Shown one piece after another: positions 1 through 21,073 of a stretch of DNA of 64,000 bases (positions within the stretch are counted from its first letter, which is position 1; each line of letters opens with the position of its first letter). Below the pieces are notes generated by a model that was not told the origin of the DNA, did not search any database, and was given only the letters and a program-made list of their open reading frames with translations. Where the stretch lies: the NCBI GenBank assembly GCA_965198005.1, contig CBDAOI010000002.1, positions 608,001 through 672,000 of the forward strand, read 5' to 3'. Origin of the DNA: Spirochaetia bacterium (lineage in GTDB: Bacteria > Spirochaetota > Spirochaetia > SZUA-6 > Bin103). Position numbers and translations under genes: made by a program.

Positions 1-75
1 CGGCGGAGGGTGTTGCGGCGGCCGAGGGCGCCGCGGCCGGGAGCGCGGCGCTGGCCGGCACGGCGCGCGGCTGAG
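1..75 (+). pseudogene. 3' end of branched-chain amino acid aminotransferase copy A (runs off window edge)
   Basis: Near-identical to 1415-1488 and 5305-5378, the Ala/Gly tail of the BCAT-like ORFs; stop TGA at 72-74. Confidence 0.6.
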
Positions 76-84
76 CGGGCTGCC

Positions 85-481
85 TCAGAACGGCATTCCG
101 AACATGAGGAAGCCGGAGTACGCCCGGGTGCCGGCGCCCAATTCCAGCGCCACCCGCTCACGCACACCGATCGAGAAGCGGTCCTGACGATACGTGCCAC
201 CCAGACCTGCCCGAATCGCGTTGTCAGCCAACTTCCACGTCAGCGTCTCTCCCGGATATCGGGACGACCGTCTGCGCGCCGCTGAACGTTCGCTCTACGT
301 CCGGAGCAGCACGCAACGAGACCTCCCCGCCACCCACGGGAAGCGTGCTCTCCGGCTGCAACCCGAGGTCGCCGACCAGGCGTTGGGCATCCCGAACCGA
401 TGCGGCCGCCAGCACCGGCACGGTCGGCATGGCGCCGACGCTGTACGTCGCCAACAACAGCATCGGCAACGTGCCCACCGA
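85..481 (-). pseudogene. frameshifted 3' part of a probable outer-membrane beta-barrel protein gene
   Basis: Reads ...LADNAIRAGLGGTYRQDRFSIGVRERVALELGAGTRAYSGFLMFGMPF* with alternating hydrophobic residues and a terminal Phe; joins ORF 224..478 through one frameshift; parts recur at 1499-1545 and 2486-2635. Confidence 0.4.
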
Positions 482-485
482 GTAT

Positions 486-563
486 GATCGCTACGGCGTG
501 GGCATGGTTCTCCAGCTTCTTCGAGAAGGCGTTGGTGAGGCGGGTGAAGCGCCTCGGCGACAT
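486..563 (-). mobile_element. IS1-family transposase internal fragment
   Basis: Peptide RRFTRLTNAFSKKLENHAHAVA, characteristic of IS1-family DDE transposases. Confidence 0.75.
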
Positions 564-586
564 AGATAGATAGAATAGATAGATAA
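561..586. repeat. (AGAT)n microsatellite, interrupted
   Basis: catagatagatagaatagatagataa in otherwise GC-rich DNA. Confidence 0.8.
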
Positions 587-590
587 GGAA

Positions 591-623
591 GGCCGCCAGG
601 GAGATGCTTTTTCCCCGGCGGCC
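591..623 (-). terminator. GC-rich hairpin, possible intrinsic terminator
   Basis: GGCCGCCaGGGAGA-tgctt-TTTCCCcGGCGGCC stem; on the minus strand followed by pyrimidine/T-rich ttccttatctatct. Confidence 0.4.
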
Positions 624-639
624 TGCATGTGACGCATCG

Positions 640-737
640 GGCGGGTTGGCAGAGAGGCCGAATGCAGCCGGTTGAGGGCCGGTAGCTTAGGGTGCTCACA
701 CCACCTTAGGCCGTGGGTTCGAATCCCACACCCGCCG
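640..737 (+). tRNA. type II tRNA with GAG (Leu) anticodon on a Ser-type body
   Basis: Acceptor GGCGGGT/ACCCGCC, D-arm GCAG-AGAGGCCGA-ATGC, anticodon arm GCCGG-TTGAGGG-CCGGT, 10-bp variable stem, T-arm GTGGG-TTCGAAT-CCCAC, discriminator G. Confidence 0.85.
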
Positions 738-785
738 TACCGCCGCCTACGTCACTAGTGCCATAATTCAGGGTGCCAGCGCAAG

Positions 786-890
786 CTAGCTCGGAGTGGT
801 GGAGTGGTGCCCCAGCGGGCGGCGGCGCCTATCCGGCCGATCTCCCGCCGGCGCTCCGGGGTCAGGTCTCTTGGGTAGGGTGGGCATCAT
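786..890 (-). pseudogene. internally deleted small basic protein gene of the type found beside IS1-family transposases
   Basis: AGGAGG SD + MMPTLPKRP, then LTPERRREIGRIGAAARWG in another frame; resembles the KRPRD...LTPERRxEIAxxAAxARW small proteins. Confidence 0.5.
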
Positions 891-1048
891 GCTCCTCCTG
901 GGACGCCATAATAAGTAGCGGCGACCGATCATGTCCGCAGTATACCGCGTGCCATTAACCTTTACAAGCAGTGCAAGCCGTGGTACGGAGTACGATCCGG
1001 CCTGGAGCGGGACGAGTTCGAGTCCGGGCACTCGGTGTACGTCCGACC

Positions 1049-1488
1049 CTCACGCCCGAGCTGGGCGACACGGTGCTGGCCGGGATCACGCGCCGCACGG
1101 TGATCGAGTTGGCCGCCGAGCGCGGCATCCGGTCGAGGAGCGCGCGGTGGCGATCAAGGAGGTGCTGGACGACGCGGTGGAGGCGTTCGGCACCGGCACC
1201 GCGGCCGGGGTCACCTACTTCAGCTCGATCCGGCACGGTGAGCGCGAGCAGGTGTTCGGCGACGGCGCCATCGGGCCGGTGGCGCACGCCTTCCGCAGCC
1301 GGCTCAAGGGGGTGCAGTACGGAGCGCTGGAGGACCGCTACGGCTGGATGGTGCCGGTGGCGGCGGCGGCGGACGGCGCGGGGGACGCTGCCGGAGCGGC
1401 GGCCGCGGCGGTGGCGGCGGAGGGCGTGGCGGCAGCCGAGGGCGCCGCGGACGGGAGCACGGCGCTGGCCGGCACGGCGCGCGGCTGA
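1049..1488 (+). pseudogene. branched-chain aminotransferase C-terminal half, copy B (5' truncated, frameshifted)
   Basis: TPELGDTVLAGITRRTVIELA...EAFGTGTAAGVT...QYGALEDRYGWMVPV, class IV aminotransferase motifs. Confidence 0.85.
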
Positions 1489-1688
1489 GCGGACTGCCTC
1501 AGAACGGCACTCCGAACATGAGGAAGCCGGAGTACGCCCGGGGTGCATTCTTTCTGTGTGGTAGCGCACTAGCGGTGCCACCGGCATCGAGCATGGCAGC
1601 GAGCGCGGCCAGGCGCAGCCGGTTAGCGCAGCCGGCGATTGGCGTTGACATCGAAGATGCCGCACGGATACGTTCGCCGGCGGGTCTC

Positions 1689-2350
1689 ATGGCCGACGAG
1701 CGGGCAGCAGAGCAACCGGACACCGACGAGCCGGGGCAGGCGATCAGTCAGCCGCACGACAAGTACTTCCAGCGCGTGTTCTCGAACGAGCAGGACGCCG
1801 CCAGCCTGCTGCGCACCTGCGTGCCGCGCCCGCTCGCCGACACGCTGAAGTGGTCGACGCTCGCCCTGCTGCGCGGTCGCTTCGTGGCTGACGACTGGCG
1901 GCGCAACGAGACCGATCTGCTGTATTCGGTGGAGCGGGAGGGTACGGAGACGCCGGTGCTGGTGTACGTGCTGCTGGAGCATCAGTCGACGCCGGACCAG
2001 TGGCTGCGGCTGCGACTGCTGGGTTTGCGGACTTGGTAACGGCCGCGGCGCCACAGTGGCGGTGGGTGCCGAGGTTTGAGCATCCGCTGATCGACCAGAC
2101 GGAGCTGGGCGCGCGAATCGGTGACGGGCGCGGTAGCGGCGCGGGTGTTGCAGATCGCGATGATGGCGACGTTTCGGGAAGCGCCGGAGGAGTTGCTGGA
2201 ATGGGTGACGCGGTTGATTGGGGAGTTGTACCGCGCCAAGGGGTTCGAGGAAGTGGCGAAACACGTGGAGTACGTGCTGGCGACGCAGCCGGAGGCACAG
2301 CGGAAGCTGTTTGCGGAGGCGTTGCGGAGGAACGTGCCGGGCCACGGGAA
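1689..2350 (+). pseudogene. Rpn/YhgA-like recombination-promoting nuclease, deleted and frameshifted
   Basis: QPHDKYFQRVFS...ETDLLYSV...VYVLLEHQSTPD motif; continues in other frames. Confidence 0.85.
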
Positions 2351-2485
2351 TCGACGAGGCCACATTCCGGCGCCTCAGGCAGCGAATCGACGCAAAGGAC
2401 AACGGGGCGGATTCGACCGTCTGAGGCCGCCGCAGCAACCTCGACGGCCGCCTGCACGCCGCTACCACACTGAGGAATGCACCCG

Positions 2486-2635
2486 ACCCACGGGAAGCGT
2501 GCTCTCCGGCTGCAACCCGAGGTCGCCGACCAGGCGATGGGCATCCTGAACCGATGCGGCCGCCAGCACCGGGACGGTCGGCATGGCGCCGACGCTGTAC
2601 GTCGCCAACAACAGCATCGGCAACGTGCCCACCGG
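2486..2635. repeat. ~150-bp direct repeat of 332-481
   Basis: Only three substitutions seen by eye; two fall at third codon positions of the minus-strand frame. Confidence 0.85.
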
Positions 2636-2728
2636 GTGTTCGTCTTCACGGAGAAGAACGTCCGACAAACCCGACACAATCGCTTCAGCATGGTTTCCTC
2701 AGTTAGTGGGGGGGCAGTATGCTACCGC

Positions 2729-3517
2729 ATGGCTCTCAACGTGAGCGCAGCCGCGATGAACCCGCCTGGCACGATACACACCGGACCGCTCGGCTCCACC
2801 GTGCACGTGCTGCGCGCCGATTCCGAGACCGTCGCCGAGTTGGCCGCCATCGACTGGAGCCTGCGCTTCCGCCGCGTCTGGCTCGACCCGATGCGAGGGA
2901 TCATTGCTCTGACGTCGCCGTCTCACTCCCACGAGGATCTGTCCACGATCCTCGACAACATCGTGGACATTGCGGCGAGTATTCTCGCCGGCGCGACGAA
3001 AGGGTTGCGCAGCACGCGGCTGCGGCGGCGGGATGACCCCCCGGGCACGGGAATGGAGCCCGACTGCGCGTTCTATGTCGGCGCGCGTGCCAGGGACTTC
3101 CGTGCTGCTATGGTCGAAGGTACGGCCGCGGCCGAGGCCTTCATCGAACGTACCGCGCCCGATCTGGTGATCGAAGTCGAGATCACCAACGCCGATGAAG
3201 GTAAGATCGAACGCTATGCCGAGTTGGGGGTGCGAGAGCTGTGGCGCCTGCACGGCCGCAAGGAGTCGTGGGAGTTGCGTGCCGATTTTCTCGCCCTCCA
3301 CGCCAACGCTGCGCCGCGCGAGCTTGACGCTTCGGAAGTCGTCCCGGGGCTCACCCCGGGCGATGTGTGCGAAGCGGTCGACGGGGTGCGCGCCGGTGTG
3401 ACCCACGACGAGCGGACGCAAGCGGTCGCCCGCATCGTGCACCGGCGCCAGTCGCCCAGCGTGCGGGTGCGTGAGGAGGAGGAGGTCCGGTACCTCGCGC
3501 GTTCGGCCGCACCGTAG
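2729..3517 (+). CDS. Uma2 family (DUF820) PD-(D/E)XK endonuclease
   Basis: SPSHSHE, MEPDCAFYVG, PDLVIEVEIT, YAELGVRELW motifs. Confidence 0.85.
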   Translation: MALNVSAAAMNPPGTIHTGPLGSTVHVLRADSETVAELAAIDWSLRFRRVWLDPMRGIIALTSPSHSHEDLSTILDNIVDIAASILAGATKGLRSTRLRRRDDPPGTGMEPDCAFYVGARARDFRAAMVEGTAAAEAFIERTAPDLVIEVEITNADEGKIERYAELGVRELWRLHGRKESWELRADFLALHANAAPRELDASEVVPGLTPGDVCEAVDGVRAGVTHDERTQAVARIVHRRQSPSVRVREEEEVRYLARSAAP

Positions 3518-3601
3518 AACGCGCGGCGAGGCAGTTGGGCCGGGTACACGGCGGCGTCGGCACCGAGGAAATGGGGACCCCGCTGGGCGGCGGCCGCAAG
3601 G

Positions 3602-3965
3602 TCACCGCATCGGCCAGTCATCCTCGGTCCACCGGCGATCAGTGACGCCCACGGCCTGCGCCGGCGTCATCTTCAGCTGTAGCCACGGTGCGCCGCGCCC
3701 GTCGCTCCTGAATCGCCACCGTATACCTTGATCAGCATCGCGTAATCCACGTCGCCGCCGAAGGCGCCGCGCACGGCCGTCAGGTAGGCGCGGTGCCCGT
3801 CCGTGGTCAACTGCACGCGATTCCGAAGGCGGCTCGCCAGATCCTTCATGAACGGGATCGCGGATGCGGCCGAGCGGTCGCCGATGAACCAGGAGGGAAC
3901 CAGCTTGGTGTCGGCGCATATGGCCGTCCAGGTCCACACGTCGCCGGCCTCCGGCGGCGCGCTCT
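3602..3965 (-). mobile_element. IS1-family transposase remnant, internally deleted
   Basis: GDVWTWTAICADTKLVPSWFIGDR...VQLTTDGHRAY...VDYAMLIKVYG and C-terminal TPAQAVGVTDRRWT. Confidence 0.85.
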
Positions 3966-4001
3966 TGGAGCGCGCTACTTGCAACGCTAGTAGGGCGCCG
4001 C

Positions 4002-4259
4002 TTATAGGAGCTTGAGCCCGCCAACGATTACCAGCGCAACGACCAGCGAAGTGCCTATCGCCCAACGCAGGGACGACACCTGCTTCTCGGCAATCAAGGT
4101 CTTGATGGACTCGATGTCGGCCTTTGTGGCTACGTTCTTGGAAAGGTTGTTTACCCGTTCCTCTAGCCGTACCAGCCTCGCCTCGAACCCGCCACCACCG
4201 TTTCCCGCCCCCGATCCGGTGCTGGCACCCGGAAAGTCTATAGGCTGAGGGCTTCCCAC
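4002..4259 (-). CDS. small coiled-coil membrane-anchored protein (DUF1640/Bdr-like)
   Basis: RLVRLEERV...VATKADIESIK followed by C-terminal TM helix WAIGTSLVVALVIVGGLKLL. Confidence 0.65.
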   Translation of the reverse strand: MGSPQPIDFPGASTGSGAGNGGGGFEARLVRLEERVNNLSKNVATKADIESIKTLIAEKQVSSLRWAIGTSLVVALVIVGGLKLL

Positions 4260-4504
4260 GACCTGAGCTTCTCCCAGATGTTCTGAGCGGCGTAGCCGTG
4301 GTATCCCCCAACCTTCACGACCACTCCTGTGCGCTGGTCCGCGCCTATACGATAAGCTGTTGCTATTTCAGTTGACGTGGGCGCGACACCTTCCCCTAAG
4401 GCCAAGCAGGTGGTGTTCGCAACTGCGACATGATCATGGACCCCCGGCGGTGGTTCCGAAGGGACGGGGTCGCCATCTGTATATGCCACCATGAATACTT
4501 CCAT
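4238..4504 (-). CDS. hypothetical protein
   Basis: 88-aa lower-GC ORF overlapping the next gene; no motif recognised. Confidence 0.4.
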   Translation of the reverse strand: MEVFMVAYTDGDPVPSEPPPGVHDHVAVANTTCLALGEGVAPTSTEIATAYRIGADQRTGVVVKVGGYHGYAAQNIWEKLRSWEALSL

Positions 4505-4681
4505 AGTCCGTGTCTCTACTATATATCAGACCAACGCACCGGTCCACGTCTATGCGTTGCTTTGGCGAGCATTAACGTGCAACGACGCCCTCCCTTGAAA
4601 AAGCTATGGCCACCGGAGGGTGGGGCCATAGGGTCTGCCGCCCAACACATGGGTCGGCAATTGAGGATTTCTATGAAGAAT

Positions 4682-5393
4682 ATGGGAACAGATCGCCCGG
4701 ATGTCGAGGGGGCGTCACGGCGGCCTGGTCACGTATTCCACGCAGTACGCAATGCCGTGCTTCGAGGGGCTCAAGGCGTTTCCGCAGCCGGACGGATCGC
4801 TCAAGCTGCTCCGCCCGCACCTCATACGCCGAAGCGGGGATCGGCGTCAACCTGTGCCAGGCGCCTTATTTCATTGCACCAGCGCTACGTCGAGGAGGGT
4901 TCCTCCTGCAACCTGTTCTTCGCTGTCCGACGGCCGGCTGGTCACGCCCGAGCTGGGCGACACGGTGCTGGCCGGGATCACGCGCCGCACGGTGATCGAG
5001 CTGGCCGCCGAGCGCGGCATCCCGGTCGAGGAGCGCGCGGTGGCGATCGAGGAAGTGCTGGACGACGCGGTGGAGGCGTTCGGCACCGGCACCGCGGCCG
5101 GCGTCACCTACTTCAGCTCGATCCGGCACGGTGAGCGCGAGCGGGTGTTCGGCGACGGCGCCATCGGGCCGGTCGCGCACGCCTTCCGCAGCAGGCTGAA
5201 AGGGATGCAGTACGGAGCGCTGGAGAACCGCTACGGGTGGATGGTGCCGGTGGTGACGGGGGGGGTACAGGGGGGTGATGCGAGGGGCCCGGCCGCGGCG
5301 GTGGCGGCGGAGGGCCTTGCGGCGGCCGAGGGCGCCGCGGCCGGGAGCGCGGCGCTGGCCGGTGCGGCGCGCGGCTCAGCCATCGCCACGTAG
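4682..5393 (+). pseudogene. ilvE: branched-chain aminotransferase (ilvE-like) copy C, multiple deletions/frameshifts
   Basis: QYAMPCFEGLKAFPQPDGSLKL, YVEEGSSCNLFF and the GITRRTV...GTGTAA block in different frames. Confidence 0.8.
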
Positions 5394-5637
5394 CGCCAGG
5401 AGCCCTCGTTTCTGTAGTCCCTCTACTACGCCAACCGCTATCTCCTTCGCCAACCCGCCATTCGCCATGTGCCCGAACGTCTCGCGGACCCACCGCCCGT
5501 GGGTCTCAAGATCCTGCGTCAGGGCCGTCATGTCGCCCTTCAGAGCCGTCATGTCACCCTTCAGAGCCGTCATGTCGCCCTTCAATTCATGGCCTCAACT
5601 CGCCGCAGCACTCGCCCTGAAACTCGCCCTCACTCAC
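5376..5637 (-). pseudogene. coiled-coil repeat protein (LKGDMTA x3), frameshifted near the 5' end
   Basis: AGGAGG SD + GTG at 5637; 21-bp repeats at 5519-5584; start is out of frame with the repeat ORF. Confidence 0.5.

Positions 5638-20991: not shown

Positions 20992-21073
<82 letters not shown>

What the first reader, a model, noticed from the sequence alone, without database searches (positions are those of the whole stretch)
640..737. Intact tRNA with a serine-type body and a leucine (GAG) anticodon loop: candidate Leu-to-Ser mistranslating tRNA in mobile DNA
Seen: a complete 7/5 cloverleaf with all stems paired (some G-U). It has G73, G1-C72, G2-C71, C11-G24, G15-C48, D-loop GG-C-C-G-A (G20b), and a 10-bp variable stem with no unpaired base before C48. 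Established: these are bacterial tRNA-Ser identity features, and SerRS ignores the anticodon. LeuRS prefers A73, A15-U48 and one unpaired base 3' of the variable stem, as in the genuine tRNA-Leu at 20992. The whole loop, TTGAGGG with G37, is Leu-type, so it is not one point mutation away from a Ser loop (CT-NGA-AA). Inference: it could insert Ser at CUC/CUU codons, resembling the Ser-identity allo-tRNAs but with a canonical fold. It is intact while its neighbours (IS1 pieces, BCAT, OMP) are decayed, which hints at selection or recent arrival. Possible roles are toxin, anti-phage or proteome-diversifying RNA. Anticodon-based annotation would simply call it tRNA-Leu.
Basis: partly seen in the sequence, partly recalled or inferred. 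Interest (0 to 1): 0.88.

Follow-up and report, generated by a model that had tools for sequence, protein, structure and literature searches.

The report
Serine-type tRNA carrying a leucine anticodon
This is a real, fully paired tRNA gene built like a serine tRNA but carrying the anticodon for the leucine codons CUC/CUU, lying among broken mobile DNA in a sponge-associated bacterium; if made, it should put serine where leucine belongs, as shown before for odd-shaped "allo-tRNAs".

Summary
Window 640-737 (+) is a 98-nt class II tRNA gene (Rfam 49.5 bits); all 30 stem pairs are standard. An independent run carries the same sequence, so it is not an assembly error.

Its body is serine-type: G73, G1-C72, G2-C71, C11-G24, G15-C48, a tRNA-Ser D-loop, and the host tRNA-Ser T-arm. 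A tRNA-Ser model built from its order scores 66.6 bits; the tRNA-Leu model scores 36.4, which is background.

Its anticodon loop, UUGAGGG, is identical to that of the host's own tRNA-Leu(GAG). The variable arm (10-bp stem) is longer than in 148 ordinary tRNA-Ser.

The gene is absent from 40 relatives. It lies in a mosaic of aminotransferase duplicates and IS1-family transposase fragments. Sponge metatranscriptome contigs cover it, but strand is unknown.

The same genome holds a second serine-like tRNA (CAG). Sister genomes hold serine-like tRNAs with GAC/GAU anticodons and a leucine-like one with UGG.

Best reading: a mobile, serine-accepting Leu-codon reader, a canonical-fold (7/5) counterpart of allo-tRNA(GAG), probably weakly or conditionally expressed. 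Charging and decoding are inferred, not shown. This scan has noted similar tRNAs in other genomes.

The parts
640..737 (+). Whole tRNA gene, 98 nt, 7/5 cloverleaf, class II. No encoded CCA.
   Evidence: Rfam 49.5 bits. 30 of 30 stem pairs are standard. 0 of 44 tRNA genes in this genome encode CCA, so its absence here means nothing.
640..646 (+). Acceptor 5' strand GGCGGGT. It pairs with 730-736 (ACCCGCC). G1-C72, G2-C71, C3-G70.
   Evidence: G2-C71 is found in 35 of 35 tRNA-Ser of the order; C2-G71 in 21 of 21 tRNA-Leu.
649..665 (+). D-arm: 3-bp stem GCA/TGC (C11-G24) and loop GAGAGGCCGAA (A14, G15, G18 G19, G20b).
   Evidence: The same 11-nt loop occurs in tRNA-Ser(GGA) of relatives, e.g. L159:1436-1523. 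tRNA-Leu of the order have G[A/G]AATTGG[T/C]AGAC with A15.
667..683 (+). Anticodon arm: stem GCCGG/CCGGT, loop TTGAGGG (U33, GAG at 674-676, G37).
   Evidence: The 7-nt loop is identical to the host tRNA-Leu(gag) at C3:373907-373991 and to every Leu(gag) row in alignment A2.
684..712 (+). Variable region, 29 nt: A684, a 10-bp stem (685-694/702-711, two G-U), loop CTCACAC, then C712 (= C48) directly before the T-stem.
   Evidence: At 98 nt the gene is longer than all 113 + 35 ordinary tRNA-Ser measured (82-91 nt).
713..729 (+). T-arm GTGGG-TTCGAAT-CCCAC.
   Evidence: Identical to the T-arm of the host's four tRNA-Ser.
737..737 (+). Discriminator G73.
   Evidence: G73 in 35 of 35 tRNA-Ser of the order and in 114 of 114 pattern hits. 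A73 in 21 of 21 tRNA-Leu of the order.
562..624 (.). AT-rich (ATAGATAGATA)x2 stretch at 562-585, then a 13-bp hairpin at 590-602/612-624. These lie between the transposase fragment and the tRNA. Read on the - strand, the hairpin is followed by a T-rich run.
   Evidence: (D3, I2) and the sequence. The terminator-like reading is my inference; the scan did not list it.
486..569 (-). C-terminal fragment of an IS1-family transposase, lying divergently 71 nt from the tRNA.
   Evidence: tblastn with the L226 transposase: residues 219-246, 64% identity. That transposase matches NF033558 IS1 family and PF03400.
3685..3987 (-). Central fragment of the same transposase family.
   Evidence: tblastn: residues 76-184, 40-46% identity. 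Also seen.
908..967 (-). Two sigma-70-like promoter matches pointing towards the tRNA (antisense).
   Evidence: 2 found against 0.2 expected. These are consensus matches only.
786..890 (-). 34-codon minus-strand ORF behind a GGAGGAGC Shine-Dalgarno-like motif. It is a possible antisense transcript unit.
   Evidence: No family match for the overlapping 81-aa ORF at 786-1031. Speculative.
986..1546 (+). Duplicated fragment of a class IV aminotransferase gene; it bounds the unique segment 481-985 on the right.

Best explanation
Window 640-737 encodes an intact, horizontally moving class II tRNA. Its recognition features are those of tRNA-Ser and its anticodon loop is that of tRNA-Leu(GAG).

Proposed mechanism, step by step:
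1. The gene is structurally complete (shown).
2. It is transcribed, at least at a low level (hint only).
3. RNase P, 3' processing and the CCA-adding enzyme mature it like the host's other tRNAs, none of which encodes CCA (inferred).
4. The genome's single bacterial-type SerRS charges it with serine. SerRS reads the long variable arm, G73 and the G1-C72/G2-C71 end, and ignores the anticodon. The single LeuRS rejects it because it lacks A73 and A15-U48 (inferred from published identity rules).
5. TrmD methylates G37 after G36. The loop, identical to the host tRNA-Leu(GAG) loop, reads CUC and CUU, so serine is inserted at leucine codons in competition with the genuine tRNA-Leu(GAG) (inferred).

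CUC makes up 23% of leucine codons here, so strong expression would be harmful. I therefore expect weak, conditional or antisense-controlled expression. The gene is one of a loose set of anticodon-switched class II tRNAs found in mobile or variable DNA of this bacterial family.
For: Structure:
- Rfam 49.5 bits.
- 30 of 30 pairs are standard, and the three G-U pairs make the fold strand-specific.

Serine type:
- G73 and G2-C71 match 35 of 35 tRNA-Ser of the order. All 21 tRNA-Leu have A73 and C2-G71.
- G15-C48, the D-loop and the T-arm match host-clade tRNA-Ser.
- Ser model R1 gives 66.6 bits and Leu model R2 gives 36.4. Genuine Leu score 93-99 on R2, and unrelated tRNAs score 28-44.
- A pattern made from its D-arm and anticodon stem hit 121 sites in public genomes; 120 are tRNA-Ser anticodons.

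Identity rules:
- The review PMC9976931 (passages read) states that E. coli LeuRS needs A73 and A15-U48.
- It states that G73 is an antideterminant against LeuRS and TyrRS.
- It states that C2-G71 of tRNA-Leu is an antideterminant against SerRS.

Precedent: Silvibacterium (8/4) allo-tRNA(GAG) inserted Ser at CUC in E. coli and arrested growth (PMC5389517, passages).

Host machinery: one SerRS, one LeuRS and one TrmD.

Sequence confirmed: run X2 contig 524-1033 has no difference within the gene.

RNA libraries: contigs cover 615-909 (X6), 648-915 (X7) and 511-796 (X8), all exact.

Not a one-off:
- Seven serine-like tRNAs with non-serine anticodons keep 97.8% of cells paired, with compensatory changes at 17 of 27 pairs (0 of 500 shuffles reach this).
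- G1-C72, G2-C71, C11-G24 and G73 are invariant in all seven.
Against: - No charging, decoding or strand-specific expression data exist.
- The RNA contigs cannot give strand. Two promoter-like sites and a small ORF on the minus strand could account for them as an antisense transcript, and DNA carry-over into the RNA libraries is possible.
- No promoter-like site was found upstream on the + strand. The same scan also finds none upstream of two genuine tRNA clusters, so this absence is uninformative.
- The Ser model score of 66.6 bits is well below genuine tRNA-Ser (96-99) and about equal to the host's own tRNA-Tyr on the same model (69.6 bits).
- Foreign A73 tRNA-Leu with serine-like D-loops also score as high or higher on the Ser model than on the Leu model (60 against 54; 58.7 against 38.5). 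The model contrast alone is therefore not decisive.
- The 10-bp variable stem is longer than in any ordinary tRNA-Ser measured, and its effect on SerRS binding is unknown.
- The gene has no counterpart in 40 relatives or in 23 other genomes of the family, and it sits among broken genes.
- CUC is frequent (24 per 1000 codons), so an active copy should be costly.
Confidence: 0.55

Rival explanations
1. Silent relic. The gene arrived on mobile DNA and is still intact in sequence, but it is not expressed as a tRNA, or not processed or charged, and will decay like its neighbours.
For: - It lies in a segment (481-985) that is unique in the genome, inside a patchwork of duplicated aminotransferase pieces and split IS1-family transposase fragments.
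- It is absent from 40 relatives.
- Sister genomes hold clearly decayed versions of such tRNAs: L217, L256, and the G016 copy with C14.
- The expected cost of an active copy is high (CUC is 23% of Leu codons).
- The oversized variable arm is unlike ordinary tRNA-Ser.
Against: - Every one of the 30 pairs and every universal position I checked by eye (U8, A14, G18 G19, U33, U54 U55 C56, A58) is intact. The decayed relatives show obvious breaks at such positions.
- An independent run has the gene unchanged.
- RNA-library contigs cover it.
Confidence: 0.25
2. Non-translational tRNA-like RNA. It is made and perhaps charged, but it serves the mobile DNA in another way: as a regulatory or antisense partner, a toxin-antitoxin-like component, a recombination site, or a donor for a tRNA-dependent enzyme.
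For: - Mukai et al. found that most allo-tRNA(UAU) species did not work in translation and linked them to transposons and toxin-antitoxin loci (PMC5389517, section 16).
- Here, odd tRNAs sit beside an IS1-family transposase (L224, L226) or a phage-type integrase (L225).
- Antisense promoter-like sites lie downstream of the candidate.
Against: - The anticodon loop is a perfect copy of a working Leu(GAG) loop, and the T-stem equals that of the host tRNA-Ser. An RNA that never meets the ribosome or EF-Tu would not need either.
- No toxin-antitoxin or tRNA-dependent enzyme gene was found within about 8 kb.
Confidence: 0.12
3. An ordinary, foreign tRNA-Leu(GAG) charged by LeuRS. It would be a harmless extra copy.
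For: - Leu-type loop with G37.
- Metagenome scan: four apparently genuine tRNA-Leu(GAG) genes (A73; three of them, L188, L191 and L192, stand beside other tRNA genes, L189 alone on its contig) have serine-like D-loops with G15.
Against: - G73, G2-C71, G15-C48 and serine-type variable-arm geometry.
- The Leu model gives only 36.4 bits.
- All four metagenome Leu genes keep A73, and L189, the one whose acceptor stem I parsed, has C2-G71.
- G73 is a published antideterminant against LeuRS (PMC9976931).
Confidence: 0.06
4. A tRNA-Val(CAC) at 665-738, as ARAGORN reports.
For: ARAGORN calls it in the window and in the genome.
Against: - That fold needs two mismatches in the acceptor stem and an irregular D-arm.
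- It ignores a perfect 7-bp acceptor stem 25 nt further out.
- Rfam's best match is 640-737.
Confidence: 0.01

Closest known systems
Allo-tRNAs with serine identity, in particular Silvibacterium bohemicum (8/4) allo-tRNA(GAG) (Mukai et al. 2017, PMC5389517; outline, sections 13 and 16 and found passages read)
   Same: - Long variable arm and G73.
- Non-serine anticodon, and the same anticodon, GAG.
- Found in mobile or variable DNA.
- Predicted, and for the allo-tRNA shown, to put Ser at CUC.
   Different: - Allo-tRNAs have an 8/4 or 9/3 acceptor/T branch, a long D-stem with a tetraloop, and a long anticodon stem.
- This gene has a canonical 7/5 fold, a 3-bp D-stem with a normal tRNA-Ser D-loop, and a 5-bp anticodon stem.
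- Its host is a sponge-associated bacterium, not a soil acidobacterium.
[quoted passage not shown]
   Same: - Canonical-length branch in some members.
- Mismatch between body and anticodon.
- Association with mobile or toxin-antitoxin loci.
   Different: - Those described carry G-1/His features or extra loops and stand in polycistrons. This one is solitary and serine-type.
- The paper's supplementary figures, which I could not see, may hold closer cases.
Yeast CUG-clade tRNA-Ser(CAG) (recalled; PMC6041473 seen only in the search listing, PMC8629427 passages read)
   Same: A serine-identity tRNA with a leucine anticodon and G37, reading a CUN codon as Ser, in some species alongside a competing tRNA-Leu.
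   Different: That case is eukaryotic, chromosomal and fixed as a change of the genetic code. Here the genuine tRNA-Leu(GAG) is present and CUC is a major leucine codon.
Streptomyces tRNA-ProA/ProX mistranslating tRNAs
   Same: Natural bacterial tRNAs whose anticodon does not match their charging identity.
   Different: That is a proline system with a dedicated synthetase paralogue. Here there is only one SerRS and no paralogue.
Transposon-associated mismatched tRNAs noted earlier in this scan (e1-3556222, e1-5083557, e1-1257608, e1-3613815; unchecked AI notes)
   Same: Class II tRNAs with oversized variable arms and mismatched anticodons next to IS1-family transposases.
   Different: - In this bacterial family, only 2 of 30 loci of the transposase hold a tRNA.
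- Between two transposase loci, L259 (G017) and L260 (G019), DNA likeness begins 6 nt before the transposase start, 180 nt away from the tRNA in L259.
- 'Built into the transposon' is therefore not supported here; co-location is.

Membership tests
tRNA (Rfam RF00005) | Cloverleaf covariance-model score at or above the gathering score of 29 bits. | tested here: met
   49.5 bits, model positions 1-71 of 71.
Bacterial tRNA-Ser (SerRS substrates) | Discriminator G73 with G1-C72 and G2-C71. | tested here: met
   Same as 35 of 35 tRNA-Ser of the order.
Bacterial tRNA-Ser (SerRS substrates) | Long variable arm with serine-type geometry: one base before the stem, and only base 48 after it. | tested here: met
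   A684, 10-bp stem, C712. The geometry is the same in alignment A1. The stem is 10 bp against 4-6 in the host's own tRNA-Ser.
Bacterial tRNA-Ser (SerRS substrates) | C11-G24, G15-C48 and a tRNA-Ser D-loop. | tested here: met
Bacterial tRNA-Ser (SerRS substrates) | High score on an order-specific tRNA-Ser covariance model. | tested here: inconclusive
   66.6 bits. This is about level with the host's own tRNA-Tyr on the same model (69.6), above a foreign tRNA-Tyr (53.4) and all other isotypes, and below genuine Ser at 96-99. Foreign tRNA-Leu can reach 60.
Bacterial tRNA-Ser (SerRS substrates) | Serine anticodon (NGA or GCU). | tested here: not met
   The anticodon is GAG. The anticodon is not a SerRS identity element (PMC9976931), so this bars the label 'tRNA-Ser isoacceptor' but not serylation.
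Bacterial tRNA-Ser (SerRS substrates) | Aminoacylation by SerRS. | not testable with these tools
   Needs a charging assay.
Bacterial tRNA-Leu | A73. | tested here: not met
   G73. A73 in 21 of 21 tRNA-Leu of the order.
Bacterial tRNA-Leu | A15-U48 and a Leu-type D-loop. | tested here: not met
   G15-C48 and loop GAGAGGCCGAA.
Bacterial tRNA-Leu | Leu anticodon with G37. | tested here: met
   Loop TTGAGGG, identical to the host tRNA-Leu(gag).
Bacterial tRNA-Leu | High score on an order-specific tRNA-Leu covariance model. | tested here: not met
   36.4 bits against 93-99 for genuine Leu.
Allo-tRNA (Mukai et al. 2017) | 8/4 or 9/3 acceptor/T branch. | tested here: not met
   7 + 5 pairs. U8 and C729 cannot pair.
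Allo-tRNA (Mukai et al. 2017) | Long D-stem with tetraloop, and a lengthened anticodon stem. | tested here: not met
   3-bp D-stem with an 11-nt loop. 5-bp anticodon stem, with A26 opposite A44.
Allo-tRNA (Mukai et al. 2017) | Long variable arm, G73 or U73, non-serine anticodon. | tested here: met
IS1-family transposon cargo tRNA (earlier notes of this scan) | tRNA lies inside the transposon, at a fixed place beside the transposase. | tested here: inconclusive
   Transposase fragments lie 71 nt from the candidate, and intact transposase genes lie 57-150 nt from two relatives' odd tRNAs. However, only 2 of 30 transposase loci hold a tRNA, no terminal repeats enclose both, and DNA likeness between two transposase loci (L259 and L260) stops short of the tRNA.

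The most novel reading that the evidence does not exclude
This sponge-associated bacterial family maintains and exchanges a pool of small mobile cassettes. Each cassette encodes a canonical-fold tRNA that SerRS (or LeuRS) charges regardless of its anticodon (GAG, CAG, GAC, GAU, UGG). These tRNAs are switched on only under particular conditions, such as phage attack, invasion by other mobile DNA, or stress. When on, they cause programmed proteome-wide mistranslation as a toxin-like or abortive-infection device, with antisense transcription holding them off the rest of the time.
Probability: 0.12. Interest if true: 0.85.

Novelty: new variant of a known kind. Interest (0 to 1): 0.6.

Why it matters
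Serine-identity tRNAs with leucine anticodons are known from odd-shaped allo-tRNAs of soil bacteria and from CUG-clade yeasts. This finding adds three things.

- The same trick occurs on an ordinary 7/5 tRNA-Ser scaffold, in a different habitat.
- It occurs twice in one genome, against the two most used leucine codons (CUC and CUG, together 9% of all codons).
- Relatives carry Val, Ile and Pro anticodons on Ser- or Leu-type bodies.

If these tRNAs are active, natural mobile DNA would be spreading ready-made mistranslation devices. That bears on how genetic-code changes begin, on toxin-like functions of tRNAs, and on genome annotation: anticodon-based callers label this gene tRNA-Leu, and ARAGORN labels it tRNA-Val. 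The gene is also a ready test object, being 98 nt with one SerRS and a clear CUC reporter assay.

Tried and rejected
- **blastn of the 98-nt gene.** 40 relatives gave only 23-29-nt T-arm matches in 3 genomes. Phage records gave 5 T-arm-only matches. Plasmid records gave none.
- **Viral contig pattern scan.** One hit, a phage tRNA-Ser(UGA) read in another register.
- **Metagenome pattern scan.** 8 hits. Two are not tRNAs, one is the same phage tRNA, four are A73 tRNA-Leu, and one is relevant (L190).
- **Promoter scan upstream on the + strand.** None found. The control on two genuine tRNA clusters also found none, so the result carries no weight.
- **RNA cover.** The laid RNA runs gave no contigs over 200-385 (all three) or over 944-974 (all three), with little or none over 913-943. 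Contigs cannot prove absence, so I draw nothing from these gaps.
- **Terminal inverted repeats around transposase plus tRNA in L224 and L226.** No convincing pair.
- **Other copies of those transposons in G018 and G017.** Too few and too diverged to set the ends.
- **Shared neighbouring genes among 13 odd-tRNA loci.** None apart from the IS1-family transposase in L224/L226. The 172-aa ORF behind the L226 tRNA has no relative in the loci held or in this genome.
- **Flanks of the candidate (560-990) against all loci held.** Only tRNA-internal matches, plus a weak 39-nt match to L225 that runs 13 nt into the 3' trailer (E 0.002). Too weak to claim.
- **Organism name.** L078 (a Gemmatimonadaceae MAG) shares only 45-56% protein identity with this genome. 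I did not establish the phylum.
- **An earlier-findings look-up for this genome.** It held nothing on tRNAs.
- **Codon reassignment.** I did not test it by alignment. The presence of normal tRNA-Leu(GAG/CAG/UAG/CAA/UAA) genes makes it unlikely.
Full report
**The object**

Rfam's tRNA model matches window 640-737 (+) over its whole length at 49.5 bits. It is one of 44 tRNA matches in the 4.89-Mb, 66% G+C, four-contig genome.

Segmenting the 98 nt gives a canonical 7/5 cloverleaf:
- acceptor GGCGGGT/ACCCGCC
- a 3-bp D-stem (GCA/TGC) with loop GAGAGGCCGAA
- anticodon stem GCCGG/CCGGT with loop TTGAGGG
- one base (A684), a 10-bp variable stem with a 7-nt loop, then C712
- T-arm GTGGG-TTCGAAT-CCCAC
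- discriminator G737

All 30 pairs are standard: 27 Watson-Crick and 3 G-U. The + strand folds to this shape at -50 kcal/mol (z -3.96; 0 of 200 shuffles as good). The - strand folds clearly worse.

ARAGORN misses the fold. It reports tRNA-Val(cac) at 665-738 by treating the variable arm as an anticodon arm, at the price of two acceptor mismatches.

A 510-nt contig from a run of another study covers 524-1033 and differs only at 557. The sequence, anticodon loop included, is therefore not an assembly error.

**Serine or leucine?**

I collected 35 distinct tRNA-Ser and 21 distinct tRNA-Leu sequences from this genome and 12 relatives of its order.

- Every Ser has G73 and G2-C71. Every Leu has A73 and C2-G71.
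- Ser have G15/C48 and the D-loop GAG-N-GG-NN-GAA. Leu have A15/U48 and G[A/G]AATTGG[T/C]AGAC.

The candidate sides with Ser at each of these positions. Its D-loop is letter for letter that of tRNA-Ser(GGA) in several relatives, and its T-arm is that of the host's four tRNA-Ser.

Covariance models built from the two sets gave these scores:

| Sequence | Ser model | Leu model |
|---|---|---|
| Candidate | 66.6 bits | 36.4 bits |
| Genuine Ser | 96-99 | 27-43 |
| Genuine Leu | 36-43 | 93-99 |
| A foreign tRNA-Tyr (L066) | 53 | 42 |

The host's own tRNA-Tyr scores 69.6 bits on the Ser model in the family survey, about level with the candidate.

A pattern made of the candidate's D-arm and anticodon stem hit 121 sites in public genomes. 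Of these, 120 are tRNA-Ser (CGA, UGA, GCU) of Burkholderiales, Solirubrobacterales, Planctomycetota and Halobacteria.

**A caveat I found against my own test**

A metagenome scan for 'serine-type D-loop + TTGAGG + T-loop' gave 8 hits. Four of them are apparently genuine tRNA-Leu(GAG) genes with A73; three stand beside other tRNA genes. These foreign Leu tRNAs score as high or higher on my Ser model than on my Leu model (60 against 54; 58.7 against 38.5). In addition, the host's own tRNA-Tyr scores about as high on the Ser model as the candidate does.

So the D-loop and the model contrast are not proof on their own. The weight rests on G73, G2-C71, G15-C48 and the geometry of the variable arm.

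The identity review (PMC9976931, passages read) states that:
- E. coli LeuRS depends on A73 and A15-U48
- G73 is an antideterminant against LeuRS and TyrRS
- C2-G71 of tRNA-Leu is an antideterminant against SerRS

**The anticodon side**

The 7-nt loop UUGAGGG equals that of the host's genuine tRNA-Leu(GAG) at C3:373907-373991, and that of all Leu(GAG) genes of the relatives.

The genome has one SerRS, one LeuRS and TrmD. None of its 44 tRNA genes encodes CCA, so the missing CCA says nothing.

Mukai et al. showed that an (8/4) allo-tRNA(GAG) inserts Ser at CUC in E. coli and stops growth (PMC5389517, passages).

From 1,279 long ORFs, CUC is 23.2% and CUU 2.9% of leucine codons. An active copy would touch about 27 codons per 1000.

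**Surroundings**

- Positions 481-985 are unique in the genome.
- To the left lie a copy of the 3' end of a class IV aminotransferase gene and a C-terminal fragment (486-569, minus strand) of an IS1-family transposase.
- To the right lie another aminotransferase fragment, a truncated Rpn/Transposase_31 gene, a Uma2-like gene, the central fragment of the same transposase (3685-3987), and a further aminotransferase piece.
- Ordinary housekeeping genes resume near 7.8 kb.
- The gene is not found in 40 relatives by blastn. A Ser-model survey of the 24 genomes of the family shows no counterpart.

**Expression**

The stretch is held by runs of several studies, among them four sponge metatranscriptome libraries. 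Exact contigs from three of them cover 615-909, 648-915 and 511-796.

Contigs give neither strand nor ends, and DNA can contaminate RNA libraries. Two sigma-70-like sites (967-939 and 937-908) and a small ORF behind a Shine-Dalgarno-like motif (890-786) lie on the minus strand, and a hairpin with a T-rich tail lies at 624-565. Together these could produce an antisense transcript that fits the same contigs. I therefore count expression of the tRNA strand as open.

**It is not alone**

- The same genome has a second serine-like gene at C4:2198550-2198642 (-). It is 93 nt with G73, a 7-bp variable stem and anticodon CAG. It scores 58.8 on the Ser model and 35.6 on the Leu model. It has C instead of U at T-loop position 55. 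It lies among metabolic genes.
- A metagenome contig (L190) has a GGAGAGG...G73 serine body with loop TTGAGGA. It scores 77.6 against 35.6.
- A Gemmatimonadaceae MAG (L078) has a serine-like gene with anticodon GUC.
- In the sister genus, 6 of 13 genomes carry a conserved 91-92-nt serine-like tRNA with anticodon GAC (3) or GAU (3). It has a bulged anticodon stem, compensatory changes in every stem, and conserved flanks.
- Decayed or odd copies also occur: L217, L256 (whose loop is again TTGAGGG), and L236 and L249 with 9- and 8-nt loops.
- One genome has a leucine-type body (A73) with anticodon UGG (L226).
- Across seven intact serine-like members, 97.8% of pair cells are standard, 17 of 27 pairs show changes on both sides, and G1-C72, G2-C71, C11-G24 and G73 never vary. 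That alignment was fitted to the Ser model, which favours pairing.

**Link to transposons**

An IS1-family transposase gene lies divergently 57 nt from the tRNA in L224 and about 150 nt from it in L226. A phage-type integrase lies directly upstream in L225. The candidate has the transposase fragment 71 nt away.

Earlier notes of this scan describe IS1-family transposons carrying mismatched tRNAs in other genomes. I tested this here.
- The transposase family occurs in 13 of 23 other genomes of the family.
- Of the 30 loci fetched (out of 39 matches), only the two already known hold a tRNA at Rfam's threshold.
- DNA likeness between two transposase loci (L259 in G017, L260 in G019) begins 6 nt before the transposase start, 180 nt from the tRNA in L259.
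- No inverted repeats enclose both genes.

Co-location in mobile DNA is real. Carriage inside the transposon is not shown for this clade.

**Verdict**

What remains inferred is transcription of the + strand, serylation, and use in translation.

The kind is known from allo-tRNAs. The variant is new: a canonical 7/5 scaffold with an over-long variable arm, in a sponge-associated lineage, with a second copy aimed at CUG and a family of relatives with other anticodons. The literature searches I ran turned up no description of such canonical-fold cases. The supplementary figures of PMC5389517 were not available to me and may bear on this.

Noticed in passing
L127:1501-1593 (-) = G000:C4:2198550-2198642: A second serine-like tRNA in the same genome. 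It is 93 nt, with G73, a 7-bp variable stem and anticodon CAG (Leu). The T-loop reads TCCGAAT (C at position 55), and there is a C-A mismatch at 31-39. It scores 58.8 bits on the Ser model and 35.6 on the Leu model. It lies among sarcosine/dimethylglycine-type oxidase and TauD-like genes, between two copies of a roughly 45-nt direct repeat.
   Followed up: partly
L223, L224, L225, L233, L234, L235 (each about 1501-1592): A conserved 91-92-nt serine-like tRNA family in 6 of 13 genomes of the sister genus, with anticodons GAC (3) and GAU (3). Members have a one-base bulge in the anticodon stem, T-loops TTCGATT or TTCAATT, and compensatory changes in all stems. Subgroups share about 100 nt of flanks, including a TAGAAT box 10 nt upstream (L233, L234).
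   Followed up: partly
L226:1501-1586 (-): A leucine-type tRNA body (A73, Leu-type D-loop) with anticodon UGG (Pro). It lies about 150 nt from an intact IS1-family transposase gene and is followed by a 172-aa ORF with no known family.
   Followed up: partly
L190:1112-1200 (-): A metagenome contig with a canonical serine body (GGAGAGG...G73) and loop TTGAGGA (anticodon GAG). This is an independent second case of the same combination. It scores 77.6 on the Ser model and 35.6 on the Leu model.
   Followed up: partly
L078:5112-5205 (-): A Gemmatimonadaceae MAG has a 94-nt serine-like tRNA with anticodon GUC (Asp). Its D-arm is identical to that of the C4 copy of this genome. It lies downstream of truB and ribF.
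   Followed up: partly
L249:1501-1596 (+), L236:1501-1595 (+), L256:1501-1590 (-): Serine-like tRNA-like genes with 8-nt (L249, own genus) and 9-nt (L236) anticodon loops, and a decayed copy (L256) whose loop is TTGAGGG, as in the candidate. ARAGORN calls none of them.
   Followed up: no
L188, L189, L191, L192 (metagenome contigs): tRNA-Leu(GAG) genes with A73 but serine-like D-loops (G15). L191 and L192 lie in dense arrays of 6 and 15 tRNA genes, L188 beside three other tRNA genes, L189 alone on its contig. They show that a serine-like D-loop alone does not tell Ser from Leu.
   Followed up: partly
L005:2124-6753 (upstream of the window, G000:C2:598124-602753): Four tandem copies, with a period of about 1.17 kb, of an outer-membrane beta-barrel / autotransporter-like gene at 60-98% identity. 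Some have shortened reading frames.
   Followed up: no
L005:1255-1454 and L005:8256-8363: Two short tandem arrays, one of 21-nt units (8 copies) and one of 18-nt units (5 copies). The second lies just upstream of the full-length aminotransferase gene.
   Followed up: no
window 1-5432 and L005:8845-12113: At least four copies or fragments of one class IV aminotransferase gene at 88-98% identity, interleaved with mobile-gene fragments. This indicates repeated recombination in the region.
   Followed up: partly
L231:501-588 (-) (G016): An extra, decayed copy of tRNA-Ser(GGA) beside the genuine one. Its anticodon has changed to GUA (Tyr), it has C at position 14, and three bases at its start read N.
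   Followed up: no
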